From positions 73,952-134,626 of the forward strand of contig PFEU01000008.1 of the NCBI GenBank assembly GCA_002793515.1: a stretch of 60,675 bases of DNA, in the 5' to 3' direction. This document shows, one piece after another, positions 10,916-60,675 of this stretch (position 1 is the stretch's first letter; each line of letters starts with the position of its first letter). Below the pieces are notes generated by a model, which worked only from the letters and a program-made list of their open reading frames with translations, was not told where the DNA came from and ran no database searches. Made by a program: the position numbers and the translations under genes. This stretch comes from Candidatus Uhrbacteria bacterium CG10_big_fil_rev_8_21_14_0_10_48_16 (GTDB lineage: Bacteria > Patescibacteriota > Patescibacteriia > UBA9934 > GWF2-40-263).

Positions 10916-12147
10916 TGGATCCCATCACTCTCGCTATCATCGCGACACTCGCAACGAGCGGAACGATCGGGACCGCAGCCGGAGCCGTCGCCCTCTACCG
11001 GGCGATTGAACGTGCTGGTTTCCCCAAGACGACACCGTCGGGTAAGCCCATCATGTACGAGCGTCTCACTCCCGAGGAGATCGCCATCCAGATGGCTCGC
11101 CGCGTGGTCATCACCCACACGCTCATCACCATCGGACACGATCGCACCGGCCAGAAGGCTGTAGGCGAACGTATCATCGGCCACCGCAAGGTGGGCGAAC
11201 GCAAGGTGGGCGAGAAGGTCGTTGGTTACAATGTCGTCAGCCACCGCAAGGTGGGTGAACGACAGATCGGTGAGGAACAAGTCGGCGTACGGACAACCGG
11301 TCACCGATGGAAGGAATCACCAATCCCCGCTGACCGTGTGCGCCTTCGCGCCATCCGTGGACTCGAAGAGTTCCACCGTCGCCTTCCGGCCGAGCTCCTG
11401 CTTCCACCAGACATGCAGGAACTCCGCATCCTGACGGGTGAGGCGCAAGTCCTCGCCTTCGAGCGTCGCCTGCCAATCATCGAACCCATCATGGTTCCGA
11501 TCATGGAGGATGTGACCGAGCCTGTCACCGAACCGGTGGTGGAACCCGTTATGGAAGACGTGATGGAAGCTGTCACGGAAACCATCTGGGAACCCGTCTA
11601 CGAACCAGTGACACGCAAGAAGACACACGGCGTCTACATGTTGATCGACTACTCCCAATCCGCGCGGGTCGGCTTGATCGGCTCCATAGGCCGATACTCC
11701 AGACCTGGCCACCCCTGGCGTGGGAAACTCAGCGACCAAGCGGCGGTCGAAACACTCAAACGCTGCCAGCAGGAGGGGATCCCCTTCTACTGCCGTGCAT
11801 TCCACAACGAAGCCCTGAAGCTCTTCACTTGGAGGCCTGGCGACCCTCCGGGGAACGTCATGGACTATCTCAACGGATGCAGACACGGCGGCACAAACAT
11901 TGCCGTAGCCATCGAGACAGCCATCGGCGACCTCACTGGAGAGGGACTCGACTCCGCTGACCTCATGTTGCACACTGACGGAGAAGACAACCTCGACGAA
12001 TCACTCCGTCGACGACTCGACCAAGCCAACGTGCGTCTGCACGTCCAGCTCTATGGTGTAGAGAACGAGACGCTTCGGCGACTCGCCCACACCTGGAGCC
12101 TGTGCCCCACCAATCGCTACCTCTCGCAGGTAGTCACGAACTCCTGA
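10915..12147 (+). CDS. ViaA/CoxE-like von Willebrand A domain protein with N-terminal hydrophobic helix and internal repeats
   Basis: MIDAS motifs IDYSQS, GGTNIAVAI, HTDGED; ViaA-like RRLPAELLL motif; start overlaps the ATPase stop. Confidence 0.8.
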   Translation: MDPITLAIIATLATSGTIGTAAGAVALYRAIERAGFPKTTPSGKPIMYERLTPEEIAIQMARRVVITHTLITIGHDRTGQKAVGERIIGHRKVGERKVGEKVVGYNVVSHRKVGERQIGEEQVGVRTTGHRWKESPIPADRVRLRAIRGLEEFHRRLPAELLLPPDMQELRILTGEAQVLAFERRLPIIEPIMVPIMEDVTEPVTEPVVEPVMEDVMEAVTETIWEPVYEPVTRKKTHGVYMLIDYSQSARVGLIGSIGRYSRPGHPWRGKLSDQAAVETLKRCQQEGIPFYCRAFHNEALKLFTWRPGDPPGNVMDYLNGCRHGGTNIAVAIETAIGDLTGEGLDSADLMLHTDGEDNLDESLRRRLDQANVRLHVQLYGVENETLRRLAHTWSLCPTNRYLSQVVTNS

Positions 12148-12179
12148 ATGCACAAATAGGAGAACCCACCTCCTACCTC

Positions 12180-12252
12180 CCCACCACACACGCTGGTGGG
12201 ATTTTTATTTTCATCAAAAAGAAAAGCACCCGGACTCCGTGGAGTTGGGTGC
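12180..12252. terminator. Back-to-back terminators between convergent accessory operons
   Basis: CCCACCA/TGGTGGG plus T tract (+ strand); GCACCC...GGGTGC preceded by an A tract (- strand). Confidence 0.7.
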
Positions 12253-12262
12253 GCGTGTGTGA

Positions 12263-13447
12263 TCACTCGTAGTGTCTGCTTCGACTTGACGTCCACTCTT
12301 CGTGACGATTGTTGATGATCCAGAAGCTCAGGCCGAGGTTGATCAAAAGCGTCAGGAAGTAGGAGAGGACGACCGCCCAGCCGGGTGGCTCCACCGTAAG
12401 GTAAGAGAAGTCAGCGAAGGGCTTACGAACGAAGCGCTTGCGCACTTCTGGGACCATGTAGTCCACGAGATCAACGAGGTCGAGCGTCCCCTGGTTCAGG
12501 GCGTACTCACGGACATCGATCTTGAGACGATCCTGTTCGGTCCACGAGATGACGTGGGTCCAGGTAACCTTGCCAGATCGGTCGGTGCCAAGGGCGAGGA
12601 TGAACTCGTTCTTGTTCCCACCCTTCCAGTAGCTCTCCTGAGCAAGTCCAGTCTCGAGGGTTGATTCGGGTCCGAAGACCAGTACGAACATCTTGACTTG
12701 CTTGTTCCTTCCAATCTTGGCGTTCCAGAACCGTAGGAGCGTATCCGCTTCCCTCGTTTCTGACCCACCATTCCCCAGGATGGCTGGTTGATCCCAGCTT
12801 CCGATCCCTGGGTACTCATAGAGACCCCAGACCTTCGGATTCACCTCTTCGAAGTTGAAGACGGAAGTGGAGGCCTGAACGCGGTTCTCGTAGGTGTGTC
12901 TTGTTGTGACCTCGACGAAGCTCGCGTCGTCCTTCGTGTTCCACGTAGCGACGTACTTGTCACCGTCGATAGAGTGGTAATCACGGTGCATGTCCACGAA
13001 GACACGACTATGCCACTTGCTGACAAGACCTTCGAACTGGCCTGAGCTGATGGACTGCGATTCTCCGTTGGAGTCGTGGAGAACCCAACGTGGTGGATGG
13101 TCGTCTACATCGTAGAGATGCTCCGTGCCGCAGGCGACACGTTCGGTGCAGGAGTAGGTGCTCCCATCTGAGTTGGTACAGGTAGACGGTTGGTCACAGT
13201 ACTTCGTGTGCGTACAAGGAACCTCCTCGTCCCAGCGCTCGAAGTACTCGGCATGCGTTGCCCATCCGCCCCAGAACTCGGTATCCGCCGTCTGCACCAT
13301 CTCGGTCCCATACTTGAACCCAGCGATGCACACGATCGAAACCGCGAACGGAACGATGAACTCCCAGGCGACCGTCTTGTGACGGAACCAGGCATACAGA
13401 ACGATTGCCACAACGATCGGGATCGCCATGGCTCCCCAGATGATCAT
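12263..13447 (-). CDS. Hypothetical membrane protein (2 N-terminal TM, Cys-rich insert, alpha/beta TPM-like region, C-terminal TM); GC-rich
   Basis: 394-aa ORF with SD AGGAG and GC-rich codons; TPM-like call is by eye only. Confidence 0.75.
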   Translation of the reverse strand: MIIWGAMAIPIVVAIVLYAWFRHKTVAWEFIVPFAVSIVCIAGFKYGTEMVQTADTEFWGGWATHAEYFERWDEEVPCTHTKYCDQPSTCTNSDGSTYSCTERVACGTEHLYDVDDHPPRWVLHDSNGESQSISSGQFEGLVSKWHSRVFVDMHRDYHSIDGDKYVATWNTKDDASFVEVTTRHTYENRVQASTSVFNFEEVNPKVWGLYEYPGIGSWDQPAILGNGGSETREADTLLRFWNAKIGRNKQVKMFVLVFGPESTLETGLAQESYWKGGNKNEFILALGTDRSGKVTWTHVISWTEQDRLKIDVREYALNQGTLDLVDLVDYMVPEVRKRFVRKPFADFSYLTVEPPGWAVVLSYFLTLLINLGLSFWIINNRHEEWTSSRSRHYE

Positions 13448-13482
13448 GACGATCTCCTACTGTGGTGGGGGGGGTAGAAGTT

Positions 13483-14034
13483 CTAGTTCTTGCCGTTGCT
13501 GAACAGGTCAACGTCGTTCTCCTGACCGGACGAGAAGGCCTCGTCGGTCTTCGCACTCGTCACGAGCTGGATCTTGATCTCGGGTCGACCGCCGACGAAG
13601 ATGGAGCTGGGAAGCGTCTCGCGGAGGTTGTCGTGCTGTGCCTTGATGTCGATCAGCTTCTTCTGCTCACGCGCGAACTTGGTCCGCTCAGCTTCGATGG
13701 AGCGCATCAGGTCCTGGTAGAGCGCAGTGTCGAACTCCGGATTGTGTTCGGTGATCCAGCTCATGAGGGCACCACCGCGGTCATTGCCGTAGCGACCCTC
13801 CATCAGCTCGGGGTAGATCTCCTTGAAGTCCTTCGCGTACTGGCTGCTGACGCCGGCCTTCTGCTGGATGATCTTCCAGGTGGCATCGAACACCACCTCC
13901 AAGTTCTCTTGCTGAGCCTCGGCCAGATTGCGCGTACGCACCTCAGCATTAGTGTAGTTGACGTACATCCCGATCGTCATCATGGCGATGACAGCCAGGC
14001 TCAGGAGGCCGACGAGAAGTCCCTTGTTCTGCAT
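13483..14034 (-). CDS. LemA-like single-TM helical protein; GC-rich
   Basis: N-terminal TM then amphipathic helices ending TLPSSIFVG, reminiscent of the LemA C-terminal FP-x-N-IVA segment. Confidence 0.65.
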   Translation of the reverse strand: MQNKGLLVGLLSLAVIAMMTIGMYVNYTNAEVRTRNLAEAQQENLEVVFDATWKIIQQKAGVSSQYAKDFKEIYPELMEGRYGNDRGGALMSWITEHNPEFDTALYQDLMRSIEAERTKFAREQKKLIDIKAQHDNLRETLPSSIFVGGRPEIKIQLVTSAKTDEAFSSGQENDVDLFSNGKN

Positions 14035-14215: not shown

Positions 14216-14650
14216 GTCTCAGGATGGTCGGATGGCTACGTGCGCTTTGCGTGCGAGGAAAGTCCGAACACCCGTTTTATCGCAAGATAAGACGATAAAG
14301 AGAGTCGCTAACGGCGACCAAGGATACGTTTGAGGGTTCGCGGAATTGGAGAAATTCATTCCATGACTCCTGATTCAAACTTTAGGGAAAGTGCCACAGA
14401 GACAATACTAGCCTCGTGCAAACGGGGTGAAAGGTGAAAAGTGATGCTGAGGTTACTCGATCAGTCGGTTGAGTCAGCCACACATCTCGCTCCATGGCGA
14501 CATGGATGCGTGGTAAACCCTCTCTGGTGAAAGAGCAAATTTGGTAGCTCGATGGAGCCCTTCAGCAATGTTGGGACTAGATAGATTGCCATCTCCCTTT
14601 GCGAGTTCGTAGAGGTAGACAAAATTCGGCTTACAGACCAGCCCTGGGAC
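14216..14650 (+). ncRNA. rnpB: RNase P RNA
   Basis: GAGGAAAGTCC, AGTGCCACAGA, GGTAAACCC and ACAAAATTCGGCTTA conserved blocks; P1 helix GTCTCAGG/CCTGGGAC. Confidence 0.96.
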
Positions 14651-25927: not shown

Positions 25928-26473
25928 CTAACGACTAAGTCGTTTTAATGCGGCACGAATTCGATCATCCGTTCCTTCCGCTTCAAGCCCAGACAGCGCC
26001 ATCTCTGCATCACGGCGTGAATACCCAAGTCCAACAAGCGCTTCAATCGCATCTAGATCTAATGCAGAGATATCTGGCTCGTCCGCAAGCGCGCCTTTGA
26101 GTTCGAGAATGATTTTCTGAGCCGTCTTCTTTCCGATCCCTGGAACACTTGTGAGAAAGGTTAAATCCCCAACCATGATCTTCGCCTTCACCTGTTCAAT
26201 CGCCTCAGCATAGACAATTTTCTGCCCGCTCTTTGGACCTACCCCTGAAACGCCCACGAGTTTCCAAAATAACTCCAGCTGAGCGATGGACGTAAAACCA
26301 AATAACTCACGTCCATCATCTCGAATCGCCTCGTGAAGATACAATGTTCCTTGATCTGGAACCTCATAGACCATCTTCTCTGGAAGCGTAATTTTATAGC
26401 CTAATCCTTGATTTTCAACGATCACATATCCTGTTCCGCGATACACCATTGTTCCCTGAATAGAGATGAGCAT
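25928..26473 (-). CDS. ruvA: Holliday junction branch migration protein RuvA
   Basis: ENQGLGY, ELFGF, VSGVGPK, VPGIGKKTAQKIILELK, IEALVGLGY. Confidence 0.95.
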   Translation of the reverse strand: MLISIQGTMVYRGTGYVIVENQGLGYKITLPEKMVYEVPDQGTLYLHEAIRDDGRELFGFTSIAQLELFWKLVGVSGVGPKSGQKIVYAEAIEQVKAKIMVGDLTFLTSVPGIGKKTAQKIILELKGALADEPDISALDLDAIEALVGLGYSRRDAEMALSGLEAEGTDDRIRAALKRLSR

Positions 26474-26475
26474 AG

Positions 26476-27693
26476 CTATTCCCCTGTTTCAAACATCTTT
26501 TTATAAAACGCTTCCGCACGATTCTGAATCTCCACGGAAATCTCCTTTCCAAATTTCGGCATTTCCCCCTGACCTAACACAGCCGACTGAATCCGTCTAA
26601 GCATACGTCCAAACTCTGGACCTGGATCCATGCGCAGGACGTCCATCAATGAAACTCCATCAAGACCGACATCACGAAATATCCGATTCTGCCTCTTCTT
26701 CTCCTGAGCAAGACGCATGGCTTCTTTTTCTACACGCACGTGTGGAGCATAATCATGCTCACTTTGAAAAAAGTTTATGAGTGCGCTTGTCTCATGCCAG
26801 TAGCCATGAGGGCCCAACCGTTTTGACCCCACGACTTGATCGAGCAATAAACACGCTTGAGCTAAATCGACAAAATCGTCTGCATCATACCCTCTCTTTG
26901 AGGCTAGATGTACGTAGCGACGAATCCGTTTTGGGCGCACCTGAGTGAAATCTCTATTGATTTCCATGTGATGCGAAATGAGGTCCTCGAGCAGATCACG
27001 ATCACGCCCAGGGAGCCTATGAGCCATGCAATAACGACTCAATAAATCTTCAAAGACTGGCGCATGAATTTTTCGAGCATGTTGCGGATAATGAACCTGA
27101 ATTCCGTACACAAAATAAAACTGCGCTTGCGTCTCTTTCGGAGATCCTCGAAACTCTCTCACGGAAAATTGCTCATAGAGTGCCAAATACTCTCCGAGCT
27201 TGGCCAATCGTTCATGAGCCATTTCATCAAAATGATGCGATCGAGGCGTATGGAATCCTAATGCTTCACCTTTAGAGCCAGGCTCTGCGGAAAACGTAAT
27301 GGATGGCCATTTCGCCACGTCATGACACAAAATAAACACTTGAAAGAATGCGATGTTCTCTTTGATGAGATCCTCTAGCTCTTGAATTTCCCCTTCATAC
27401 CCTTTCAGGCGCCGAAATTCTTCGATATCAATAAGATGAATTTTCTCCTCGGCAAGAGCAAATAAAAACATCAGCATGATTCGCAGATGATCTCGTAAAA
27501 ACGGACCTTCTGCGTGATAACGAACATCCTGCGGAGTTCGCAAGCTCTGCGCAATAAGGGGTTCTTGTGCCGTAGCCGCTTGAAGAAGCGCCTCCGCATG
27601 GCGAGACAAATGCGCATCGACCTCAATCTGCTCGATTAACGGATCAAGAAAGATACTCTCTGCTTGTTGATGCGTAGACTCAAATCGCCACAT
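26476..27693 (-). CDS. Putative HD-domain phosphohydrolase with CCA/poly(A)-polymerase-like C-terminal tail
   Basis: YHAEG...DH, LCHDVAK, ISHHM; C-terminus GLDGVSLMDVLRMDPGPEFGRML. Confidence 0.6.
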   Translation of the reverse strand: MWRFESTHQQAESIFLDPLIEQIEVDAHLSRHAEALLQAATAQEPLIAQSLRTPQDVRYHAEGPFLRDHLRIMLMFLFALAEEKIHLIDIEEFRRLKGYEGEIQELEDLIKENIAFFQVFILCHDVAKWPSITFSAEPGSKGEALGFHTPRSHHFDEMAHERLAKLGEYLALYEQFSVREFRGSPKETQAQFYFVYGIQVHYPQHARKIHAPVFEDLLSRYCMAHRLPGRDRDLLEDLISHHMEINRDFTQVRPKRIRRYVHLASKRGYDADDFVDLAQACLLLDQVVGSKRLGPHGYWHETSALINFFQSEHDYAPHVRVEKEAMRLAQEKKRQNRIFRDVGLDGVSLMDVLRMDPGPEFGRMLRRIQSAVLGQGEMPKFGKEISVEIQNRAEAFYKKMFETGE

Positions 27694-27705: not shown

Positions 27706-28305
27706 TTACGCTATCGAGCCATCAATCCCAAGGAATCTCTGGATAATCTCATCGGCCGTCTCCGTCACCGTTTTGATCGATTGAGAACCATCAATAATTC
27801 CGTGAGCATAGGCCTTGAATGGGACAACGGTTTTTCGTTGAGCGGGAAGAGCTACAAGACGATGATATTCAACATCATAATCTGGTTGACGTTCTAAACG
27901 ACGAACAAGAGCCGTCTCTTCATCAATATCAAGCCAGAGTCGCAGATCAAAAAGATTCCGGATTCCCGTGTCTGCAAACAATTGCATCCCTTCAACAAAC
28001 AACACTGGGGTTGGTTTAAACAAAAGTCGTCCTGTGCGATCACAAAGACGACGATTATAGACAGGGATAAATACATCATTCCCTTCACGCAACTCACAAA
28101 GCGCCTCATAGACCTCGTCCAGGTACAGACTCTCAGGAAGATCCCAGTGTGGGCGACCGTTGGTAAGCGTGGGGCAGTCTTTTGCCGTTTTATAATACGC
28201 ATCGAATCGAAAACGTTTCACGCCCCCTTGGGCCTCAAGATGCTCAGCAAGGGTTGATTTTCCCGCCCCAGAAATTCCAGCTAATCCAATAAGAAGTGGT
28301 CGCAT
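27706..28305 (-). CDS. Uridine kinase-like P-loop kinase
   Basis: LIGLAGISGAGKST, DAYYK, HWDLPES, FVEGMQLF, FDLRLWLD; ATG 28305. Confidence 0.8.
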   Translation of the reverse strand: MRPLLIGLAGISGAGKSTLAEHLEAQGGVKRFRFDAYYKTAKDCPTLTNGRPHWDLPESLYLDEVYEALCELREGNDVFIPVYNRRLCDRTGRLLFKPTPVLFVEGMQLFADTGIRNLFDLRLWLDIDEETALVRRLERQPDYDVEYHRLVALPAQRKTVVPFKAYAHGIIDGSQSIKTVTETADEIIQRFLGIDGSIA

Positions 28306-28375
28306 AACGTTGACTAGTTTAACGTGTGAAAGAACTTGGGGCAAGAAAAAACCGGATAGCCACATCTATCCGGTT

Positions 28376-28699
28376 TTACTTTTTTCCTAACACGGCATAT
28401 GTCACCCCTCCCACGGCATGAACCGCTTGTGCGTCACGTGAGTAGTCAACGAGTGGATGTGTTTTAAGAATTCGATGAACTGTTTCTCGAAGTGCTCCTG
28501 ACCCACGGCCATGAATAATTTTGATAACTTCCTCCCCTGCCATAAATGCGTCATCAATAAATTTCTCGACCATTTGCCTAGCATCAAATGCATCCATTCC
28601 ATGCAAATCTACGGATAGTGGATCCCCAAGCTCTGCTCCAAAAATAAGCGTCTCTGCTTCAGCAATTCTTTGCTCTTCTGGAGAAGTTGGTTTATCCAT
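28376..28699 (-). CDS. Smr/MutS2 C-terminal domain protein
   Basis: VDLHG, IIHGRGSGALR, GGVTYAVL; ATG 28699. Confidence 0.9.
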   Translation of the reverse strand: MDKPTSPEEQRIAEAETLIFGAELGDPLSVDLHGMDAFDARQMVEKFIDDAFMAGEEVIKIIHGRGSGALRETVHRILKTHPLVDYSRDAQAVHAVGGVTYAVLGKK

Positions 28700-28706
28700 A
28701 AATATC

Positions 28707-29672
28707 TTACACCTCATCATTCTCATCATGAATCTCACGACCAATGATTTCTTCAAGCACATCCTCAAGCGAAACAATACCGACAAAACTTCCTCCCTTT
28801 TCTGTCACAAGCGCCATGTGTGCACGACGAACAATCATGAGATTGAGTACTTCATCAAGTTTTCGAGTAGGAGTCACGCGCACCATCTTGTCTGTTCGCA
28901 TCAAATCTTCTATGCGTCTAGATCCTTCTAACCCAAGAAGATCCTTTGCAAAAAGAAGCCCTACAATATTATCTGTGTCCTCTGAGTAGACAGGGATTCG
29001 CGTGTATCCCTCTTCTCGAATCTTAAAGAGGAGACGGTCTCCGAGCGTATCCCCAATCGCTAAAGAGAACACCTCCTCATAAGGAGTCATCACTTCTTTC
29101 GCGGTCTTTTCTGAAAATCGTAACGCTCCTAAAATAATCCGTTCTTCATCTTCATCCACAACAGAACGTGGATCATCCTCATGCATGGCGATAATGTGTT
29201 CCAACTCTCGTTTAGACCAAATCGTCTTTAATTCTTCACCTAATGTTTTATCAAGAACCCACGCAATTGGTTTTGCTACAGGATACAAAACAATCATCGT
29301 AATCTCGACAATCCATGCCGTACGAGAACCAATAGACAACGCATAACGAGCACACGTGGCTTGAGGAATAATTTCACCAAACACCACAATCAATCCGGTT
29401 GCCACAATACCTGCAATAACCCCACTCGCAATATCTCCTAAAATAATTGAAATGGCTGAATTCACAGCGACATTTCCTAAAAGAAGTGAAACGAGAAGGA
29501 GATTCCCTCGTTTTCGAACACGCAGGACGCGTGAAGCTTGCTTGTTTCCAAGCTCAGTCTTCCGTTCAAGATCTGTCCGGTTAAGACTGTAGAGACCTAG
29601 GTTTAGACCAGAAAAAATGGCGGAAAAGGCGATCAACAAAATGATCGCCAATCCTATCAGTGGATCAATCAT
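28707..29672 (-). CDS. CNNM/CorB (DUF21 + CBS pair) membrane protein
   Basis: SAIFSGLNLG, LLGNVAVN, IVVFGEIIPQ, VMTP, GYTRIPVY, HMALV, GIVSLEDVLEEIIGREIHDE. Confidence 0.92.
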   Translation of the reverse strand: MIDPLIGLAIILLIAFSAIFSGLNLGLYSLNRTDLERKTELGNKQASRVLRVRKRGNLLLVSLLLGNVAVNSAISIILGDIASGVIAGIVATGLIVVFGEIIPQATCARYALSIGSRTAWIVEITMIVLYPVAKPIAWVLDKTLGEELKTIWSKRELEHIIAMHEDDPRSVVDEDEERIILGALRFSEKTAKEVMTPYEEVFSLAIGDTLGDRLLFKIREEGYTRIPVYSEDTDNIVGLLFAKDLLGLEGSRRIEDLMRTDKMVRVTPTRKLDEVLNLMIVRRAHMALVTEKGGSFVGIVSLEDVLEEIIGREIHDENDEV

Positions 29673-29716
29673 AGATATAGAAAACGAGGAGCATCATAGC
29701 AGAACCACCCTAAAAG

Positions 29717-30583
29717 TCAAACCACCTTGCGGTACACCGTTTCAATCGCCTGTTTTACTTCCCGTAACGTCACCTGCTTCTTCCCTTTTTCATTCTTGTG
29801 ACCCCAATTACGGTCCAAGCCAAACGTAAATCCTCCAAAGCGCTCAAATAACTGAATGGCATACGGAGATTCTTGAACATAAATGAGGCCTCGACCGTGT
29901 TCAACAATAATCATGGGGGTAGGTTTCCCAATTTCCTGGACGACAATCCGAGACAAACGAGGACGTAACTGAATATCAGCTCGTGTGCTAATAACGAAAA
30001 ATTCACGCCATTTCTTTTTTCGATCCCACGCCGATTTGGCAAGTTGTTCTTTACGAGCCTCTGTCTTTGGATTGTGCAAATGGGCAACGAGAGAATCGTG
30101 AAATGCCATCACGTCTTGAATTTCTTCCTTTGAATATCCCTCGTCTTGAAGCGCCCACACATATCCTCGATCTTGAATTCCAATCCCTCGAACAAGTTTT
30201 GGCTTATATCCCCATGTTGTTAGTTGCGCATCGGTCACCTTAAACATCTTAAGAAATTGCTCAAGCGAACTTGGAAGAAGTTTCCCATGCTCATCATGTG
30301 CCCGCGAAAGCCCCGTGTAGTGATGATGGTCAATCACATCGAGTTTCACCCCCATCTTTCTCAATTTCTTTTCTGCTTTGAGTCCAGGCATCTCAACCAC
30401 AATCACACGGGAATACCCCCCATCTTTCACATCCTTCACATAATCATGCCCTTTATCCAAAGAAGATCCATGAAACTGTTTGGACTCAATAATAGGAAGT
30501 CCGAGCTTCTGTGCAATCTGCTGAATCATCACAGCCTCTGCATCGTTTGGGGGAATGATTAAAACCGTTTTCTTATATGCCAT
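29717..30583 (-). CDS. DHH-superfamily phosphoesterase, NrN-like
   Basis: Motif string ND-A-E...VVE...IDHH...SSLEQ...QDRGY...GYSKEEI. Confidence 0.65.
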   Translation of the reverse strand: MAYKKTVLIIPPNDAEAVMIQQIAQKLGLPIIESKQFHGSSLDKGHDYVKDVKDGGYSRVIVVEMPGLKAEKKLRKMGVKLDVIDHHHYTGLSRAHDEHGKLLPSSLEQFLKMFKVTDAQLTTWGYKPKLVRGIGIQDRGYVWALQDEGYSKEEIQDVMAFHDSLVAHLHNPKTEARKEQLAKSAWDRKKKWREFFVISTRADIQLRPRLSRIVVQEIGKPTPMIIVEHGRGLIYVQESPYAIQLFERFGGFTFGLDRNWGHKNEKGKKQVTLREVKQAIETVYRKVV

Positions 30584-30723
30584 ACAACGGCATTATAGCA
30601 AGAATACACACGAATGGTCGTTCTCGGTTCCTGTCCACTCAAACTGGACAGGGGTTTTGTGGAGAAGAGACTTTAGAAATTTCATCAAACCGATACACTT
30701 AATGAAGAACCTACCAGGAGACA

Positions 30724-30858
30724 GTGCCCAGGAACTGCTATGAATGGATAAAACTGGATGGTGCCAAGGTACGACGAGTCAGAAAAAAGGAGACAACATC
30801 CTTTTCTTACGAGGAACTCTCCTCGAACCGGTCCCCGGAGGATCCCATGGGTGGCTAA
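30724..30858 (+). CDS. Small protein, 44 aa (MPRNCYEWIKLDGAKVRRVRKKETTSFSYEELSSNRSPEDPMGG)
   Basis: GTG start 3 nt after AGGAG; own terminator at 30886-30914; below the ORF-track cutoff. Confidence 0.5.
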   Translation: MPRNCYEWIKLDGAKVRRVRKKETTSFSYEELSSNRSPEDPMGG

Positions 30859-30885
30859 CCCAACGCCGACTCTTTCCGAGTCCCT

Positions 30886-30914
30886 ACCGATCTACGCAGA
30901 TCGGTTTTCTTTTT
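30886..30914 (+). terminator. Intrinsic terminator after the 44-aa ORF
   Basis: ACCGATCT-ACGC-AGATCGGT followed by TTTCTTTTT. Confidence 0.7.
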
Positions 30915-31043
30915 ACACAAAAACGGCTATCAAGGATTGCCGTTTTTGCCTCTCGTGCTCTTCCTGAATACACGAGCAAATCTTGAACTCAGGAAGAGTA
31001 CCCCAGTGCGTGAGCGTGTTCTGAAGTCTCTTCCCCTTTGCAC

Positions 31044-31280
31044 TTATTGGTGCGTGAGAGGGAAGATGTCTCTCTGAAGCCAAACGGCCTCATCGAGAAA
31101 CTGCTGAATCAGCGAGTCCCCGTTCTTGCGAACGCGGGCCCATTCGATCAGCTGTGCGAGCGTACCGGCACGCACCTTCTTCTCATCGTCCTGCAAGGTG
31201 ACCTGCGGGTCAGCGAGAGTGAGGTACGAATCACTTCCCTCTGGGAAGCACCGGACGACGAGGTAACTCGGATGCGCCAT
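31044..31280 (-). CDS. Small hypothetical protein, 78 aa
   Basis: AAGGAG five nt before ATG; GC-rich third positions. Confidence 0.6.
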   Translation of the reverse strand: MAHPSYLVVRCFPEGSDSYLTLADPQVTLQDDEKKVRAGTLAQLIEWARVRKNGDSLIQQFLDEAVWLQRDIFPLTHQ

Positions 31281-31559
31281 GGATTCTCCTTGAGGTTGAA
31301 TTCCACTCTCTTGCGACCGACCGCGACAAGCTCATCGATCGAAAGGGAGTGGAGCAGGACCTCGGCGACGTTGATTCGCGTTGGTCCCGCAGGAGAAAGG
31401 GAATGGATGCCTGTTACCTCATCCTTCACACAACGAACCCCACAGCAGTGGTCTTCGTTGGATGCTCTTACTAAACTTCCATCACTCGAGGCGATGAAAT
31501 AGTTAGTGTACCGACGTCCCCACGCCGGAGTTTTGAGCAACAGCGTCTTGCAACGATGT

Positions 31560-32338
31560 CATTCACCACCTATCAGTGATGCTCACTACAGGAACACGAT
31601 CAGATCGTGTTAGGCGCGACCAGAAGAGGTCGCCTCACAGGATGGCAGACCATGGGGGTCTGCTTGGACAGTCACCTCCTGAATGAAATCTGCTGACCGA
31701 CCAAAGGGTGTCCAGCCCTAAAGTCGGAAGGAAGGCCATTCACGATCCGTAGATCGATCTGGCGACAGACTTGTCTTGCGTAAGAACACGGTCTGTCAGC
31801 GTTCCGAGACTCTTTAACGAGCCCACCTTCGGATGAGGTCCCCTTGCATAGGGGCTGTCGATAACTCCACGTCCGCCGACGCAGAACGACACAACACTCA
31901 AGTCTGGGTCTGCCTCCCATATTTGTGACTCAACGAACGAGCCACCTCTGTACTGGGTGAACGGGGGGTGTCTTGTCCCGCTCTTCCAACCATCACTATG
32001 CGTCGTTGCCAGCAACACATAGTTTGGCCCCAGGGATTTGACCCCTCTGAAGACACGGCTGGGGTTCCGTATCTCAGATGGAATCAAATCTCTGGGGCAA
32101 TAGGCCCCCAGACTCATTTCTCTCTTACTTGTCGGAAGCGAAGCGTCCGACCTGGTTACAGATAATTCGCTTCAAGTCCTTTGACTTGGGAATTACTGCC
32201 AGAGTGCCGTGAAAAGACGGATAACGCGATATATTGCGATTTTTTCTACGATATTCAGGGGCGTCTTTTAAACAAACAGTCCAGAATGAGAGTTATTTGA
32301 ATGTGATGTACTTGTTTGTTGTCTCTGACATGAGTCAA
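31560..32338 (-). ncRNA. Candidate large structured RNA or very long structured leader; boundaries approximate
   Basis: Downstream of a consensus promoter; at least 10 hairpins in 31593-32151; G-U pairs and a cUACGg loop fit the minus strand. Confidence 0.5.
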
Positions 32339-32344
32339 CCCAAT

Positions 32345-32373
32345 AAGCTATCATGGATAGAAAATACTGTCAA
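32345..32373 (-). promoter_or_regulatory. Sigma70 promoter, leftward
   Basis: Minus strand TTGACA-N17-TAGCTT with TG extension. Confidence 0.65.
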
Positions 32374-32491
32374 GGGTTTCTGGATCGATATTTAGTATTT
32401 AGCTAAATATAGCTAAAAATAATGTTCAAAGTGAGCGAACATATAAAAGCCTAGAGAAATACTGTTGGCTCATATATCTGTCTATTAATCC

Positions 32492-32520
32492 TTGACATTG
32501 AGACGAAAAGCTGTTATAGT
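32492..32520 (+). promoter_or_regulatory. Sigma70 promoter, rightward
   Basis: TTGACA-N17-TATAGT with TG extension. Confidence 0.75.
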
Positions 32521-32526
32521 CTGTTG

Positions 32527-33035
32527 TTCTGTAAATCTGACGACGTGGGTGCACAAGTGCCCAACCGTCCGCCAGACAGACAGGGAGCGGACCATGAACG
32601 GATGATGTAAAAGTCGAAAGACAAGATCGAAACGACCTGAAATACGGTCGACATCGCCAGTTCATGGCCACAAGTTTTTAGTCACCCCCAACCCAAACCA
32701 GGAGAAATCAATTCCATAACCCAACAGAAGTCCTCTTCAAACGCCAATCCACCCTGGATTCGGCCCAGATCAGGACTCTTCACGTTCGACGCCCGAACAA
32801 CGAAAGGAGTTCAAGCGTCAACATGGTCTCCCTGAGACCATCGTACGAGACAAGGATGCGTACGGACGTGTAAATCTGTTGGGAGGTGGTACATGGGTGG
32901 CTAGCCCGCGCGCGTTGATCCCGGGTTCCGGATGAGCATCTCGCTTGTCCGGACCCGGGGGAGCCGCCTACCCTTCTCTACAGAACACACGACCTTACGC
33001 GAGCCGACTCCACGAAATGGGTCGGTCTTGTCTTT
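32527..33035 (+). ncRNA. Candidate ~500-nt structured non-coding RNA; boundaries approximate
   Basis: Promoter at the 5' end, terminator-like hairpin 33004-33035, multibranch helices, GAAA tetraloop, no ORF of 60 aa or more. Confidence 0.55.
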
Positions 33036-33169
33036 ATAAAAGAGAAAAACACATCGTCAGGAACCGCTAAACGAGATGAGATGCGCCGTCCTGGAAAGAA
33101 AAAATTGCCTCATCGTACCAATACGTACGTTGAGGCAATTTTTTCTTGAAGGACAAGCAGATCACTCGT

Positions 33170-33925
33170 TTAGCGGTTCCTGTAGGGATCGACACGACAG
33201 ACGGCCCATGAGGCATTAAACAAAACACGTGCCATCTCCGCGAATGTTTTACTTTCAATAATCACGGTCACCATCTTTCCAACGAACTCCACAAACGCCA
33301 CGCGATTCTCATAAATCCAGATCTCTCCACTAAACTCTCCAAACTCTGGAAGGAGCCGACAGTACTCTGCATTCTTTCGCGGGTTTCGAAGTTCTCCTCG
33401 ATGAAGCATTTTGATCTTTACCCGAGAATCATCTAGCGCTTTACGCGCATCGAGTAACATATTCTCATCCATCCCCTCATACACCACATCAATGTTTGCG
33501 AGTTCTAATAACTCTTTCGGATGCACGGAAACCAGATCGGTAAACAACGCATAAATCGCTTCACGCCCCTCAAAAAATCGCACCGTAGGACGTTCCCCTC
33601 CTGACATCATCTTCATCTCAACGAGAGACCGAGAAAACGTATCAATCCGTTCCTCAAGATCATGCACGCGACTTTTAAAATACGCGACTGCTCGCTCAGG
33701 ATCTTCCGCACTAAAAAATTTCTTCTTCCCTCGCTCAAACGTGGACATAAGTCCTCGGTCCTGAAGACCCGCAATCACATCGTACGTTGCCGTTCGAGAG
33801 AGTTTGGCGTGCTTGGCAATTTCTTGCACGGACGTCGGACCAAGTTTTAAGGAGGCGAGATACACACGAGTCTCTGTGGGAGAAAGTCCAAGCTCGGTAA
33901 GGAGCTTCATGAAATCCATGGCCAT
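33170..33925 (-). CDS. TrmB-family transcriptional regulator
   Basis: LGLSPTETRVYLASLKLG...IAKHAKLSRTATYDVIAGLQDRGL HTH; C-terminal EIWIYENRVAF...IIESK sensor-like domain. Confidence 0.88.
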   Translation of the reverse strand: MAMDFMKLLTELGLSPTETRVYLASLKLGPTSVQEIAKHAKLSRTATYDVIAGLQDRGLMSTFERGKKKFFSAEDPERAVAYFKSRVHDLEERIDTFSRSLVEMKMMSGGERPTVRFFEGREAIYALFTDLVSVHPKELLELANIDVVYEGMDENMLLDARKALDDSRVKIKMLHRGELRNPRKNAEYCRLLPEFGEFSGEIWIYENRVAFVEFVGKMVTVIIESKTFAEMARVLFNASWAVCRVDPYRNR

Positions 33926-34068: not shown

Positions 34069-36924
34069 CTAGAACCCAATGGTAATCTCTAATTCATTTG
34101 CTTTAAACACGTTCTGTGTCGCAGGAACATCTCCGTCTGTACGGAGGGAAACAGCAAGTGTCCCTTGAAGAAGGACTGTCTCGTGCTCACGTACGGCCTG
34201 CAAAATATCCTCTGACCCACCGACATACAGATCAATGCGATCCTCGAGAGTCAACCCTTCTTTCTTTCGCAAGTCGTTCACACGACGAATAATCTCACGT
34301 ACGGTTCCTTCACGAACAAGTTCTGGGGTAAGCACGAGATCTAATTCTACGGCGTAATCCCCCTTCTTCACTTCTATCGATTTCACATTAACTTCATCCA
34401 TCACCAATGCCTGATACGCAGAAGCAAATTCTCCAGACGGAACCGTAACGGTCATTCCTCCGAGAGCCTGTCGCACATTGATTCCAGCGTCTGATCGGCG
34501 TTCAAGCGCTTTTGAAACAACCGATCGAGTACGTCCCATTTCTTCAAGGACGTTCGCATCAATAAGCCCCTCATCTGCGATCGGCCACTCCTCAAGATGG
34601 ACCGACTCCAATGTCCCACCAACCTGCTTGTAAAGCGTCTCGGCAAAAAACGGAGCAAATGGTGCCAAAAGTTTTGAGAGGGTAATGAGCGTGCTCTGCA
34701 ATGTCGCAAGCGCAGCTAATCGATCTCCTTCGTCCTCCCCCTTCATACGATCACGAGAGCGTCGGACATACCATGTCGAGAGATCATCAATAAATGCACT
34801 GAGTTCTCGAACCGTCTCTGTAACGACATACTTCTCCAAGCGTTCTGTCGTATCTTTCACAAGACGATGTAAACGCGCGGAGATCCATCGATCAAGAACG
34901 TGCGTTGGGCTCACGGTTTCTGGAACTCCTTCATCAGCAAACATCTCATAGAACGTCGCCACGTTCATCAAAATCGTAAAGTTCTTTCGAACCATGTCGT
35001 TCAAGGTTTTCTCATCAAAACGCTTAGCCTCTCCGGGTTGGTTAATCGTGTACATGTACCAACGCACCGCATCAGCCCCATAGGTGTCGATCATCTCCAT
35101 AGGCTTCACGATGTTCCCCAACGATTTACTCATTTTCTTTCCCTCTGCGTCCAGAACATGCCCCAAACAAATAACGTTCTTGTACGGTCGCTCTCGATCA
35201 AGAAGGGTTGAGACCGCTAATAGGGTATAGAACCATCCACGTGTCTGATCAATAGCCTCAGAAATGTAATCCGCTGGATACGCTTCTCCTGAATCAACAA
35301 GTTCCTTGTTCTCAAACGGATAGTGCCACTGCGCATACGGCATACACCCTGAATCAAACCAAACATCACATACGTCCAGGACGCGGGTGAATTCTTTTCC
35401 CTCTTTCACCAAAATAATCTCATCCACAAACGGACGATGCGGATCAAATGTATCCCCCACAAGCGAAGGATCCTTCGCCAGACTCTTCAACTCTTCAAAT
35501 GAACCGATACAGATGCGATCTCCATCTTCGCTCTCCCAAAGTGGAAGCGGAGTTCCCCAATACCGTTCACGAGAGAACGCCCAATCTTTTACTTCACGGA
35601 GCCATTCTCCAAACCGACCGTCACGAATATGCTCAGGCTCCCAGTGGATATTCGCGTTTTGTGCCAGAAGTTCATCACGCAATTCACTCATGCGGATGTA
35701 CCAGGAATCTTTTGCGTAATAGATCACCTTCGTCTTGCAACGCCAACAATGTGGGTAGGAGTGTTCGTATTTTGCCTTTGTAAACAAGCGTCCACGATGG
35801 GCAAGATCCTTGATCACATCCACTGCCACCTGTTCATCGGCCACAAATCGTCCCTCAAAAAAACCTGTTCCTTTTACAAACGTTCCATCGAGATTTACCA
35901 GATGATGCTTTGGCAAACCTACTTCATTTCCGAGCTGGAAGTCATCGGCCCCGTACATTACAGCCGTATGAACAATTCCCGTTCCGTCTTGCGTGGTCAC
36001 AAAGTCCGCCGGATGCACACGAAACGCCGTATTCTCAAGCTTCTCCTTTTGCTCTCCCTCGACGAGCTCCCCCATAAACGGGTAGAGCGGTTCGTACATC
36101 TTTCCAACAAGCGATGCCCCCTTCAATTCCTCCACAATCTCACCGCCTTCGGGCAACACGCTTCCAATCAAATCTTTTGCGAGCCATAAAAACTCCTCCC
36201 CCACCTTCACTTTGGCATAGGTAATCGCATTCCCAACAGCAAGCGCAACGTTTCCCGGAAGCGTCCATGGGGTCGTGGTCCATGCAAGCAAATACTCATT
36301 CTCTGCTCCAACGATTTTGAACTTTGCGGTCACGCTCAAATCTTTTACATCCTTATATCCTTGAGACAATTCGTGACTTGAAAGGGATGTTCCGCAACGT
36401 GGACAATGCGGAGTCACGCGATAATCTTTATACAGCAATCCTCGCTCCCAAATCTGCTTCACCACCCACCAGAGCGATTCAACGTACTCCGGCTTATACG
36501 TAATATATGCCTCATCAAAATCAACCCAGAATCCAAGACGTTCGGTGAACTCTTCCCAATCCTTCTTATACGCCCAAACCGATTCTTTACACATGGCATT
36601 AAACTTGGCGATGCCATACTCCTCAATCTGAGCCTTCCCGGTAAACCCAAGTTGCTTTTCTACCTCAAGCTCAACAGGAAGCCCATGGGTATCCCACCCA
36701 GCCTTTCGCACCACTTTATATCCCTGCATGGTTTTGAATCGAGGAATACAATCTTTGAATGCTCGACTTTCTGCATGATGAATTCCTGGTTTCCCATTTG
36801 CCGTTGGTGGACCTTCATAAAAGACAAAAGAGCCCTTTGGGGCCGGCTTCTCGATTGTTTTCTTAAAAATATTGTTCTCTTTCCAAAATGCGAGAACCTC
36901 GTTTTCTTTTTCAGGGAAATTCAT
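34069..36924 (-). CDS. ileS: Isoleucine--tRNA ligase (type 2)
   Basis: EGPPTANGKPGIHH, GWDTHGLPVE, AWTTTPWTLPGN, DWAFSRERYWGTPLP, DQTRGWFY, KMSKS. Confidence 0.97.
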   Translation of the reverse strand: MNFPEKENEVLAFWKENNIFKKTIEKPAPKGSFVFYEGPPTANGKPGIHHAESRAFKDCIPRFKTMQGYKVVRKAGWDTHGLPVELEVEKQLGFTGKAQIEEYGIAKFNAMCKESVWAYKKDWEEFTERLGFWVDFDEAYITYKPEYVESLWWVVKQIWERGLLYKDYRVTPHCPRCGTSLSSHELSQGYKDVKDLSVTAKFKIVGAENEYLLAWTTTPWTLPGNVALAVGNAITYAKVKVGEEFLWLAKDLIGSVLPEGGEIVEELKGASLVGKMYEPLYPFMGELVEGEQKEKLENTAFRVHPADFVTTQDGTGIVHTAVMYGADDFQLGNEVGLPKHHLVNLDGTFVKGTGFFEGRFVADEQVAVDVIKDLAHRGRLFTKAKYEHSYPHCWRCKTKVIYYAKDSWYIRMSELRDELLAQNANIHWEPEHIRDGRFGEWLREVKDWAFSRERYWGTPLPLWESEDGDRICIGSFEELKSLAKDPSLVGDTFDPHRPFVDEIILVKEGKEFTRVLDVCDVWFDSGCMPYAQWHYPFENKELVDSGEAYPADYISEAIDQTRGWFYTLLAVSTLLDRERPYKNVICLGHVLDAEGKKMSKSLGNIVKPMEMIDTYGADAVRWYMYTINQPGEAKRFDEKTLNDMVRKNFTILMNVATFYEMFADEGVPETVSPTHVLDRWISARLHRLVKDTTERLEKYVVTETVRELSAFIDDLSTWYVRRSRDRMKGEDEGDRLAALATLQSTLITLSKLLAPFAPFFAETLYKQVGGTLESVHLEEWPIADEGLIDANVLEEMGRTRSVVSKALERRSDAGINVRQALGGMTVTVPSGEFASAYQALVMDEVNVKSIEVKKGDYAVELDLVLTPELVREGTVREIIRRVNDLRKKEGLTLEDRIDLYVGGSEDILQAVREHETVLLQGTLAVSLRTDGDVPATQNVFKANELEITIGF

Positions 36925-36985
36925 ACCATAGGAGTATGCCAAGCCTTGAGAGAAAAATCAAAGATTATGGTAATATTCGTTCACT

Positions 36986-48791: not shown

Positions 48792-48798
48792 GGCATAC

Positions 48799-48826
48799 AA
48801 AAAACAGGGTCGTAACCCTGTTTTTT
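48799..48826. terminator. Bidirectional terminator
   Basis: AAAAAACAGGGT/ACCCTGTTTTTT between convergent genes. Confidence 0.75.
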
Positions 48827-48848
48827 GTATGATAAAAGGCGACGAAAG

Positions 48849-50428: not shown

Positions 50429-50570
50429 CCCCGTATTACAACAAAATAAAATGACGTCTTATGATGGGCCTGTAGCTCAGCTGGTTAGAGCACCTGCTTT
50501 GCAAGCAGGGGGTCAAGGGTTCGAATCCCTTCAGGTCCACCACGAGACGTTTTTTTGTTGTAATACGGGG
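50429..50570. repeat. Inverted repeat pair enclosing tRNA-Ala
   Basis: CCCCGTATTACAACAAAA (50429-50446) / TTTTGTTGTAATACGGGG (50553-50570), plus ACGTCT/AGACGT. Confidence 0.92.
50466..50542 (+). tRNA. tRNA-Ala(TGC), CCA encoded
   Basis: Acceptor GGGCCTG/CAGGTCC with G3-U70, D arm GCTC/GAGC, anticodon arm CCTGC-TTTGCAA-GCAGG, T arm AAGGG-TTCGAAT-CCCTT. Confidence 0.98.

Positions 50571-60348: not shown

Positions 60349-60675
<327 letters not shown>

What the first reader, a model, noticed from the sequence alone, without database searches (positions are those of the whole stretch)
28707..30583. NrN-like DHH phosphoesterase next to a CNNM/CBS Mg2+-transport gene, with no CRISPR locus
Seen: motif order DxE...E...IDHH...S-S-LEQ...D-x-x-Y...G-x-S-x-EEI, co-oriented and 44 bp upstream of a DUF21+CBS gene. 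Known: NrN degrades the SAM-AMP second messenger in type III-B CRISPR systems whose effector is a CorA Mg2+ channel, and CBS pairs bind adenosyl ligands. The NrN match is from my recollection of that family. Inference: a CRISPR-independent adenosyl-nucleotide module gating a different Mg2+ transporter, or a CPR enzyme that destroys a host immune signal. Caveat: the CNNM gene seems to have its own TGn-10 element.
Basis: partly seen in the sequence, partly recalled or inferred. Interest (0 to 1): 0.65.

Follow-up and report, generated by a model that had tools for sequence, protein, structure and literature searches.

The report
Core NrN-type phosphodiesterase without CRISPR
The 288-residue protein is a relative of NrN, the CRISPR enzyme that destroys the alarm molecule SAM-AMP, but here it is a conserved core gene of one order of ultra-small (Uhrbacteria-type) bacteria that have no Cas10, and its steady partner is an unknown HD-motif protein, not the neighbouring Mg2+-transporter gene.

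Summary
It lies 44 nt upstream of a co-oriented CNNM/DUF21+CBS gene (28707-29672).

The NrN resemblance survives the tests.
- The AlphaFold model (pLDDT 95.8) has NrN-SAM-AMP (PDB 9LQA) as its best PDB match, ahead of NrnA, RecJ and PAP phosphatase.
- The X family aligns with NrN-like proteins at hhalign E 9e-43. Those proteins match B. fragilis NrN at E 1.7e-24.
- The catalytic residues are invariant in both families: D14, E16, D85-H86-H87 and D138, equal to NrN D19, E21, D85-H86-H87 and D119.

The proposed X-CNNM module is not supported.
- In 162 genomes of the order, X is in 147 and CNNM in only 25.
- The two genes are adjacent only in the window's own family. CNNM also occurs without X.
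- No Cas10 was found in any of the 162 genomes. The own genome has no CRISPR array and no CRISPR-type CorA.

X forms a monophyletic clade confined to this order. It is as conserved as IleRS and RuvA. It sits in an ileS-X-[inserts]-HD405-ruvA backbone, and the unknown 405-aa HD-motif protein co-occurs with it.

My best reading is a domesticated NrN-type phosphodiesterase with a CRISPR-independent housekeeping role. Its substrate is unknown.

The parts
29717..30583 (-). Gene X: 288-aa NrN-type DHH phosphodiesterase. Catalytic residues D14, E16, E64, E71, D85-H86-H87 and D138.
   Evidence: ORF. No Pfam, NCBIfam or PDB sequence hit. PADLOC DHH_CorA E 3e-4. hhalign to NrN-like proteins E 9e-43. AF2 pLDDT 95.8. 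Foldseek top hits are NrN. Residue equivalences.
30592..30600 (-). Extended -10 element TGCTATAAT ending 8 nt before the X start codon. Probably gives a leaderless or near-leaderless mRNA.
   Evidence: Sequence. A TGnTAnnnT or GTTATAAT-type element sits at the same distance in most of 33 orthologous loci.
29673..29716 (-). 44-nt X-CNNM spacer holding most of a promoter-like site (-35 TTGACT at 29720-29715, which overlaps the X stop codon; TG-n-TATGAT at 29701-29693).
   Evidence: Present only in the window and in L003. Other CNNM-bearing loci have abutting genes.
28707..29672 (-). CNNM/CorB-type DUF21 + CBS-pair membrane protein (321 aa). No CorC_HlyC C-terminal domain was detected. A lineage-specific insert downstream of X.
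   Evidence: Pfam CNNM E 5e-40 and CBS E 6e-13. NCBIfam GldE, CorC and PaeA partial matches below cut-off. Present in 25 of 162 genomes of the order.
28376..28696 (-). Small Smr-domain protein (about 106 aa, counted from the ATG that matches the orthologues' length). Optional member of the block.
   Evidence: Pfam Smr E 4e-21. NCBIfam MutS2 C-terminus and SmrA/SmrB. Orthologues are 97-108 aa.
27706..28365 (-). Uridine-kinase-like (PRK/Udk family) nucleoside kinase. Optional member of the block.
   Evidence: Pfam PRK E 2e-17. NCBIfam uridine kinase E 3e-23, below cut-off. It is the first recognised gene after X in 14 loci.
26476..27693 (-). HD405: 405-aa all-alpha protein of unknown family with invariant H60, H69, H124-D125, H205, H242 and D285. 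The conserved partner of X.
   Evidence: Alignment A4. Downstream of X in 36 of 36 evaluable loci, and also next to a 33%-identical X relative. Co-distribution: 143 genomes with both, 11 with neither, 4 with X only, 4 with HD405 only. No significant fold or family match.
25928..26473 (-). ruvA, the downstream anchor of the conserved backbone.
30584..33169 (.). 2.6-kb spacer between trmB and X with no credible ORF. Variable in length among relatives.
   Evidence: DNA conservation with the nearest relative only, and with no preferred reading frame. No Rfam match.
33170..33925 (-). TrmB-family regulator gene, upstream of the variable spacer.
   Evidence: Pfam TrmB in orthologues. tblastn.
34069..36942 (-). 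ileS (IleRS), the upstream anchor of the backbone. It lies directly next to X in several relatives.

Best explanation
Gene X encodes a catalytically intact, cytoplasmic, metal-dependent phosphodiesterase of the NrN branch of the DHH superfamily. It has become a vertically inherited core gene of one Patescibacteria order (Uhrbacteria type) that has no type III CRISPR. By analogy with NrN, which cuts the 3'-5' phosphodiester of SAM-AMP to release 5'-AMP, X most likely cuts a 3'-5' phosphodiester in a small adenylate-containing compound or a very short RNA end. It probably does this in a housekeeping nucleotide or RNA-end turnover pathway, together with the co-inherited HD-motif protein HD405. 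The CNNM gene, and likewise the Smr and uridine-kinase-like genes, are lineage-specific insertions between X and HD405 in a tightly packed ileS-X-...-HD405-ruvA backbone. They are not obligate partners of X. Shown here: family membership, fold, conserved catalytic residues, phyletic pattern, synteny, and absence of Cas10. Inferred: enzyme activity, type of substrate, and cooperation with HD405.
For: Family and fold:
- PADLOC DHH_CorA E 3e-4. Distant phmmer hits are NrN-CorA fusions, whose CorA part matches PADLOC CorA at E 1e-54 to 1e-92.
- hhalign of X family against NrN-like proteins: probability 100, E 9.4e-43 over 233 columns.
- The NrN-like profile matches B. fragilis NrN (9LQ9) at E 1.7e-24 over its full length.
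- AF2 model pLDDT 95.8, pTM 0.91.
- Foldseek ranks 1-4 are NrN (E 9e-12, TM 0.75 by target). PAP phosphatase, RecJ and NrnA score TM 0.56 or less.

Catalytic residues: all are shared and invariant. X D85-H86-H87 equals the NrN D85-H86-H87 whose mutation abolishes activity (PMC10600005).

Core-gene status:
- X is in 147 of 162 genomes and 48 of 55 genera of the order.
- In the class sample, 9 of 301 genomes match, and 8 of those 9 belong to the order.
- The X clade is monophyletic, SH-aLRT 100.
- Paired mean identity is 64.6% for X, 66.5% for IleRS and 62.0% for RuvA.
- The same ileS-X-HD405-ruvA synteny holds even at 33-42% identity.

Independence from CRISPR: Cmr2 matches 0 of 162 genomes. 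Csm1 gives only sub-threshold HD-domain matches (27 bits or less against a cut-off of 170). The own genome has no array.

Independence from CNNM.

Not simply the housekeeping nanoRNase: the genome also encodes RecJ, an NrnA-like protein with DHH and GGGH motifs, and a family II pyrophosphatase.

Partner: HD405 co-occurs with X and lies downstream of it.
Against: No biochemical data exist for any member of the X clade. The direct profile match of the X family to B. fragilis NrN is weak (E 0.41), so sequence membership rests on a transitive link plus the fold. The C-terminal domain carries many X-specific invariant motifs. A tryptophan that is 93% conserved in NrN-like proteins (W43 in B. fragilis NrN) is histidine in X. 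An insert of about 15 residues (113-130) is unique to X. The substrate may therefore differ considerably from SAM-AMP. HD405 has no recognisable fold or family, so the idea of a two-enzyme pathway rests on co-occurrence and synteny alone. Most joint absences come from one family, f5, which is a single evolutionary event. Where CNNM is present next to X, the two genes often abut, so a local functional link in that family cannot be excluded.
Confidence: 0.6

Rival explanations
1. The first reader's module: X controls the level of an adenosyl-nucleotide ligand (SAM-AMP-like) that is sensed by the CBS pair of the adjacent CNNM Mg2+ transporter. This would be a CRISPR-independent analogue of NrN-CorA.
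For: X is a true NrN homologue, and NrN is obligately linked or fused to a Mg2+-channel-family effector. X and CNNM are adjacent and co-oriented in the 12 genomes of the window's family in which both genes lie on listed coordinates. In most CNNM-bearing loci the genes abut, with gaps of -4 to +10 nt. CBS pairs bind adenosyl ligands (general knowledge).
Against: CNNM is in only 25 of 162 genomes against 147 for X. It is not adjacent to X in families f3 and f7 (G006, G007, G008, G118, G156, G158, G161) or in G019 of the window's own family. It occurs without X in family f5 and in G160. Only 12 of the 38 loci with a recognised downstream gene have CNNM as the next gene. In the window itself CNNM has its own promoter-like element. 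Tight packing is general in this block: X-HD405 gaps of 9-25 nt, HD405-ruvA 2 nt. No synthase for such a ligand was found: no Cas10 and no DAC domain.
Confidence: 0.07
2. Counter-defence enzyme: X destroys SAM-AMP, or a related immune second messenger, made by a host cell or during phage conflict. It would act like an anti-CRISPR ring nuclease.
For: NrN-family membership. Patescibacteria are thought to be episymbionts. Other NrN-like genes in Patescibacteria were reported by earlier, unchecked notes of this scan in variable cassettes. One NrN-like relative, P0182, sits among methyltransferase, DUF87 and radical-SAM genes typical of mobile or defence islands.
Against: X is vertically inherited at a fixed backbone position and conserved like IleRS. 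Defence and counter-defence genes are usually patchy and fast-evolving. X has no signal peptide: the N-terminus is strand 1 of the fold, followed directly by the catalytic N-D-x-E. There is no relative in 50,697 phage records, and only generic DHH folds appear in BFVD.
Confidence: 0.08
3. A general nanoRNase or RNA-end exonuclease: X trims short oligoribonucleotides or RNA/tRNA 3' ends. It would work with HD405 as an RNA-end repair or processing pair, and its resemblance to NrN would reflect common descent only.
For: DHH enzymes of this size are typically nanoRNases or pAp phosphatases. The next-best structural matches are PAP phosphatase, RecJ and NrnA. X-specific invariant basic motifs (QLRPRLSR, KTEARK, RRKKW) suit a polyanionic substrate. 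HD405 shows weak similarity to the tRNA-binding part of class II CCA-type enzymes: Pfam tRNA_NucTran2_2 in 7 of 19 members with best E 9e-4, and Foldseek best hit 3WFO at E 0.1. The gene sits directly after ileS in several relatives.
Against: The genome already has an NrnA-like enzyme and RecJ. B. fragilis NrN does not cut pApA or cOA (PMC10600005). The HD405 similarities are not significant.
Confidence: 0.2

Closest known systems
NrN of the Bacteroides fragilis type III-B (Cmr)/CorA CRISPR system (SAM-AMP phosphodiesterase; PDB 9LQ9, 9LQA, 9LQB, 9LQC; Chi et al. 2023, PMC10600005)
   Same: Same two-domain small DHH fold; it is the best PDB match, with TM 0.75 normalised by target. Similar size (288 aa against 260). 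Identical catalytic constellation, down to the D85-H86-H87 numbering and the E21 and D119 equivalents. Shared family motifs N-D-x-E, S-S/A-L-E-Q, (N/Q)-D-(R/K)-x-Y and the C-terminal G-G...W-G.
   Different: No Cas10, CRISPR array or CRISPR-type CorA in the genome or the order. X is a vertically inherited core gene rather than a CRISPR accessory gene. Only about 16% identity in the structural alignment, and a direct profile E of 0.41. W43 of NrN is H38 in X. X has a 15-residue insert and a strongly conserved, X-specific C-terminal domain. The substrate is untested.
NrN-CorA fusion proteins and stand-alone 'DHH_CorA' proteins (PADLOC PDLC01149 and PDLC01071)
   Same: They are the nearest sequence relatives outside the X clade: phmmer E 1e-8 to 1e-23, and hhalign E 9e-43 over the full length. 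They have the same motif set.
   Different: They are fused or adjacent to CRISPR-type CorA or sit in mobile-looking contexts. The X clade is a separate monophyletic branch, SH-aLRT 100, with a housekeeping context.
NrnA / PggH / GdpP-type DHH-DHHA1 nanoRNases and pApA or pGpG phosphodiesterases
   Same: DHH catalytic domain plus a small C-terminal substrate-binding domain. Hydrolysis of a 3'-5' phosphodiester in very short substrates.
   Different: No Pfam DHH or DHHA1 match for X. Lower structural similarity, TM 0.56 or less. The genome has its own NrnA-like protein with the GGGH motif.
CorB/CNNM (DUF21-CBS) Mg2+ transporters, for the downstream gene
   Same: DUF21 transmembrane domain plus a CBS pair.
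   Different: Short form with no detected CorC_HlyC domain. Sporadic in the order, 25 of 162 genomes.

Membership tests
NrN family (CorA-associated DHH phosphodiesterases) | NrN-type catalytic residues (D19, E21, D85-H86-H87, D119 in B. fragilis NrN) | tested here: met
   X has D14, E16, D85-H86-H87 and D138. They are invariant or nearly so in the X clade and in 46 NrN-like sequences, and they align to the B. fragilis residues.
NrN family (CorA-associated DHH phosphodiesterases) | Full-length sequence-profile homology to characterised NrN | tested here: met
   The link is transitive. X family to NrN-like set A3: probability 100, E 9e-43. A3 to 9LQ9: E 1.7e-24. PADLOC DHH_CorA E 3e-4. The direct X profile to 9LQ9 is only E 0.41.
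NrN family (CorA-associated DHH phosphodiesterases) | NrN fold is the closest solved structure | tested here: met
   Foldseek ranks 1-4 are 9LQA, 9LQB, 9LQC and 9LQ9, at E 9e-12 to 2e-10 and TM by target 0.63-0.75. The next hits are generic DHH proteins.
NrN family (CorA-associated DHH phosphodiesterases) | Genomic association with a CRISPR-type CorA effector and a Cas10 (type III) locus | tested here: not met
   No Cmr2 or Csm1 match in the own genome or in 162 genomes of the order. No array. Only an ordinary CorA, on another contig.
NrN family (CorA-associated DHH phosphodiesterases) | Specific hydrolysis of SAM-AMP to SAM + AMP, with no activity on pApA or cOA | not testable with these tools
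   Needs an enzyme assay. The substitution W43 to H38 and the X-specific insert and C-terminal motifs leave the specificity open.
NrnA-type DHH/DHHA1 nanoRNase | Pfam DHH + DHHA1 domains with the GGGH motif | tested here: not met
   No Pfam or NCBIfam hit for X. The NrnA-like protein of the genome is a different gene, L046.
CNNM/CorB Mg2+ transporter (downstream gene) | DUF21 transmembrane domain followed by a CBS pair | tested here: met
   Pfam CNNM E 5e-40 (residues 9-167) and CBS E 6e-13 in two stretches.
   X is in 147 of 162 genomes and CNNM in 25 of 162. They are adjacent only within family f1, separate in f3 and f7, and CNNM occurs without X in f5. CNNM is the next gene in 12 of 38 loci.

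The most novel reading that the evidence does not exclude
X and HD405 form a conserved two-enzyme pathway that handles an endogenous SAM-AMP-like adenosyl-nucleotide conjugate, as metabolite or signal, in Uhrbacteria-type bacteria that have no Cas10. In that case SAM-AMP-type chemistry would exist outside CRISPR immunity, and CRISPR NrN would be an offshoot of, or a donor to, a housekeeping enzyme family.
Probability: 0.15. Interest if true: 0.8.

Novelty: new variant of a known kind. Interest (0 to 1): 0.5.

Why it matters
NrN is known only as a specialised accessory enzyme of CorA-type type III CRISPR systems. Why immunity needs it is still unexplained (PMC10600005, PMC12255297).

This is a well-supported NrN clade that is a near-universal, slowly evolving core gene in a bacterial order with no Cas10. 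That shows the fold has a CRISPR-independent job. It gives a simple experimental handle: one soluble 288-aa protein to assay against SAM-AMP and dinucleotides. The assay would show whether SAM-AMP-like compounds occur outside CRISPR signalling, or what the ancestral substrate of NrN was.

The work also identifies a second order-specific unknown protein, HD405, as the partner of X. Finally, it corrects a tempting but wrong guilt-by-association link to a Mg2+ transporter.

Tried and rejected
- c-di-AMP or pApA turnover pair (HD + DHH). Rejected as unsupported: the genome has no DAC domain, and an NrnA-like enzyme already exists.
- Rosetta-stone fusion between HD405 and NrN-like domains. An HMM of HD405 found nothing in the 273 collected proteins, fusion proteins included. 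The C-terminal fusions carry CorA, a second NrN-like domain or other unknown N-terminal parts.
- Phage origin or anti-CRISPR. tblastn against 50,697 phage records found no match. BFVD gave only generic DHH folds with TM of about 0.5 or less.
- Identity of HD405. Profile against PDB, Pfam on 19 members, Foldseek against PDB, PADLOC and NCBIfam all gave nothing significant. A search of 5.8 billion proteins returned only Uhrbacteria or Patescibacteria 'hypothetical proteins'.
- A large structured RNA in the 2.6-kb trmB-X spacer. There is no Rfam hit. DNA conservation reaches only the nearest relative, plus short scattered patches. I did not pursue it further.
- The search for related loci with the broad alignment A2 failed because it has no conserved stretch. 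I repeated it with A1.
- The direct profile of the X family against PDB gave only E 0.41 to NrN, so a bridging alignment was needed.
Full report
**Observation.** On the minus strand, ORF 29717-30583 (288 aa, here called X) is followed after 44 nt by ORF 28707-29672 (321 aa). Most are invariant among 27 orthologues. The downstream protein matches Pfam CNNM/DUF21 (E 5e-40) plus two CBS stretches. X gave no hit in Pfam, NCBIfam or a PDB sequence search.

**What X is.**
- A search of 5.8 billion proteins found about 280 close homologues at 58-82% identity. All are 'hypothetical proteins' of Candidatus Uhrbacteria or Patescibacteria with no Pfam domain.
- An exhaustive phmmer search of 1.8 billion cluster representatives found 167 hits. 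About 45 are full-length clusters at 26-64% identity. Beyond them come 250-350-aa proteins and 500-1000-aa fusion proteins that share X's N-terminal 160 residues.
- The long proteins are NrN-CorA fusions. Their other half matches the PADLOC CRISPR-type CorA models at E 1e-54 to 1e-92, and their X-like half matches PADLOC 'DHH_CorA'. X itself hits DHH_CorA at E 3e-4.
- A profile-profile comparison of the X family (A1) with 20 stand-alone NrN-like proteins (A3) gives probability 100, E 9.4e-43 over 233 columns. The A3 profile matches B. fragilis NrN (PDB 9LQ9) at E 1.7e-24 over its full length. The direct X-family profile gives only E 0.41 against it.
- An AlphaFold2 model built on a 48-sequence alignment has mean pLDDT 95.8 and pTM 0.91.
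- Its four best Foldseek matches in the PDB are the NrN structures 9LQA (with SAM-AMP), 9LQB, 9LQC and 9LQ9. They score E 9e-12 to 2e-10 and TM by target up to 0.75. PAP phosphatase 8A8K, RecJ and NrnA 3W5W follow at TM 0.56 or less.
- In a joint alignment, X D14, E16, D85-H86-H87 and D138 align with NrN D19, E21, D85-H86-H87 and D119. They are invariant in both groups. D85A/H86A/H87A inactivates NrN (PMC10600005). E21A and D119A are the substitutions carried by the ligand-bound NrN entries 9LQA-9LQC.
- X-specific features are H38 in place of a tryptophan that is 93% conserved in NrN-like proteins (W43 in B. fragilis), an insert at about residues 113-130, and a strongly conserved C-terminal domain with basic motifs.

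**Place in the family.** I built a maximum-likelihood tree of 104 sequences: the X clade, NrN-like stand-alone proteins, N- and C-terminal fusions, and B. fragilis NrN. The 38 X-type representatives form one clade with SH-aLRT 100. It lies inside the NrN-like radiation, and the NrN-CorA fusions sit nearer the B. fragilis sequence used as root. The tree used the quick search, and the root lies on a long branch. The monophyly of X is therefore the robust part.

**Genomic context.** I compared 44 related loci (L001-L044), all from Uhrbacteria-type MAGs. They show one conserved, co-oriented backbone: ileS-(trmB)-X-[CNNM]-[Smr]-[uridine-kinase-like]-HD405-ruvA-femAB.
- Among the 38 loci with a recognised downstream gene, the first gene after X is the kinase in 14, CNNM in 12, HD405 in 7, Smr in 4 and a weak trmB match in 1.
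- HD405 (window 26476-27693) is downstream of X in all 36 loci with enough sequence.
- X relatives of 33-42% identity still follow ileS. In L051, the 33%-identical X relative is followed by an HD405 homologue after 25 nt and then by ruvA.

**Phyletic pattern.**
- In 162 genomes of the order, X is present in 147. That is 118 of 129 high-quality genomes and 48 of 55 genera.
- CNNM is present in only 25.
- Comparing coordinates, X and CNNM are adjacent in 12 genomes, all in the window's family f1: G000, G016, G017, G022, G023, G024, G038, G051, G056, G058, G059 and G064. They lie on different contigs or far apart in G006, G007, G008, G019, G118, G156, G158 and G161. CNNM occurs without X in G088, G090, G091 and G160. 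In G031 CNNM also has no X match, but it lies at a contig start, so that case is ambiguous.
- HD405 is present in 147 genomes. Both genes are present in 143, both absent in 11 (all nine genomes of family f5, plus G025 and G160), and each is present alone in 4.
- In a sample of 301 genomes of the class, 9 have X, and 8 of those belong to the order.
- X is as conserved as IleRS and RuvA. Paired mean identities over 13 loci are 64.6%, 66.5% and 62.0%.

**CRISPR and other signalling.**
- The own genome (987 kb, 96% complete) has no match to the Cmr2 or Csm1 models at E up to 1.
- It has no CRISPR-like array in my k-mer scan, and only an ordinary 338-aa CorA on another contig.
- Across the order, Cmr2 matches 0 of 162 genomes. 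Csm1 gives only matches of 27 bits or less to its N-terminal HD region, against a cut-off of 170 bits.
- There is no DAC (c-di-AMP cyclase) domain.
- The genome does encode RecJ (581 aa), an NrnA-like DHH/GGGH protein (325 aa) and a family II pyrophosphatase-like protein (306 aa). X is therefore not the organism's only DHH nanoRNase candidate.

**Expression signals.**
- A TGCTATAAT extended -10 element ends 8 nt before the X start codon. A similar element sits at the same distance in most of 33 orthologous loci. This suggests X has its own promoter and a leaderless transcript.
- The X-CNNM promoter-like site exists only in the window and in L003.
- In most other CNNM-bearing loci the two genes abut. 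When CNNM is present it is packed like the rest of the block.

**Interpretation.**
- The evidence supports family membership by sequence, fold and catalytic residues. It does not support the contextual criterion of CorA and Cas10.
- X works 'like' an NrN in the sense of an intact NrN-type active site.
- Its role cannot be resetting a Cas10 signal, and it does not depend on CNNM.
- The most economical reading is that an NrN-type enzyme was fixed at the base of this order together with HD405. It now serves a housekeeping hydrolysis of a small 3'-5'-linked adenylate compound or a short RNA end.
- The substrate is inferred, not shown. The X-specific pocket changes warn against assuming it is SAM-AMP.

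**Rivals.** The CNNM module, a counter-defence enzyme and a general nanoRNase or RNA-end processing role are weighed in their own sections. HD405 remains unidentified. It is all-alpha, and the model has pLDDT 90.7. Invariant residues include H60, H69, H124-D125, H205, H242 and D285. Its only similarities are insignificant ones to the tRNA-binding part of CCA-type enzymes.

**Earlier notes of this scan.** They report NrN-like genes in other Patescibacteria, mostly in variable cassettes next to TrmB regulators. I read them after my own reading had formed. Here a TrmB gene and a variable 2.6-kb non-coding spacer do lie upstream of X, which agrees with those notes in part. In contrast to those cases, X itself is a fixed core gene.

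**Novelty.** I found no paper in the held library that describes NrN relatives in Patescibacteria or outside CRISPR loci. I file X as a new variant of a known kind: a distinct clade of the NrN family with a different genomic role.

Noticed in passing
window 26476-27693 (-): HD405 is a 405-aa all-alpha protein with invariant H...HD-type residues and no detectable family or fold match. It is restricted to the same order as X, co-occurs with X (143 genomes with both, 11 with neither, of 162) and always lies downstream of X.
   Followed up: partly
window 30584-33169: The 2.6-kb stretch between trmB and X has no credible ORF. It shows 81% DNA identity over 655 nt (31082-31728) and 71% over about 670 nt (31765-32431) to the nearest relative only, with tblastx scores similar in several frames of both strands, which indicates non-coding sequence. 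Short 28-120-nt patches recur in other genomes and contigs. There is no Rfam match. The trmB-X distance varies from 0.2 to 4.8 kb among relatives.
   Followed up: partly
window 30592-30600 (-) and orthologous loci: A conserved extended -10 element ends 8-9 nt before the X start codon, with no Shine-Dalgarno sequence, in most of 33 loci. The mRNA is probably leaderless.
   Followed up: partly
genomes G024, G033, G065, G067, G070, G072: A second, more divergent copy of X lies about 15-27 kb from the first on the same contig in several genomes of three genera.
   Followed up: no
L050:3083-3907: A stand-alone NrN-like protein (P0182) sits among an N6/N4 methyltransferase, a DUF87 ATPase, and PHP and radical-SAM genes, with no CorA or cas gene within 7 kb. 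NrN-like genes therefore also occur in mobile- or defence-island-like contexts without CRISPR.
   Followed up: no
P0180 (817 aa), P0195 (749 aa), P0173 (646 aa): NrN-like domains also occur as tandem duplications (P0180 has two DHH_CorA stretches). They are also fused behind a weak calcineurin-like phosphoesterase match (P0195) or behind unknown N-terminal domains (P0173).
   Followed up: no
window 14220-14650 (+), 60023-60131 (-), 60347-60675 (-): RNase P RNA (class A), 5S rRNA and the 3' end of 23S rRNA lie in the window, as do tRNA-Leu (6347-6432) and tRNA-Ala (50466-50542).
   Followed up: no
window 10000-14000 and 48000-50000: G+C rises to 0.57-0.62 against a background of about 0.47. These may be islands.
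   Followed up: no
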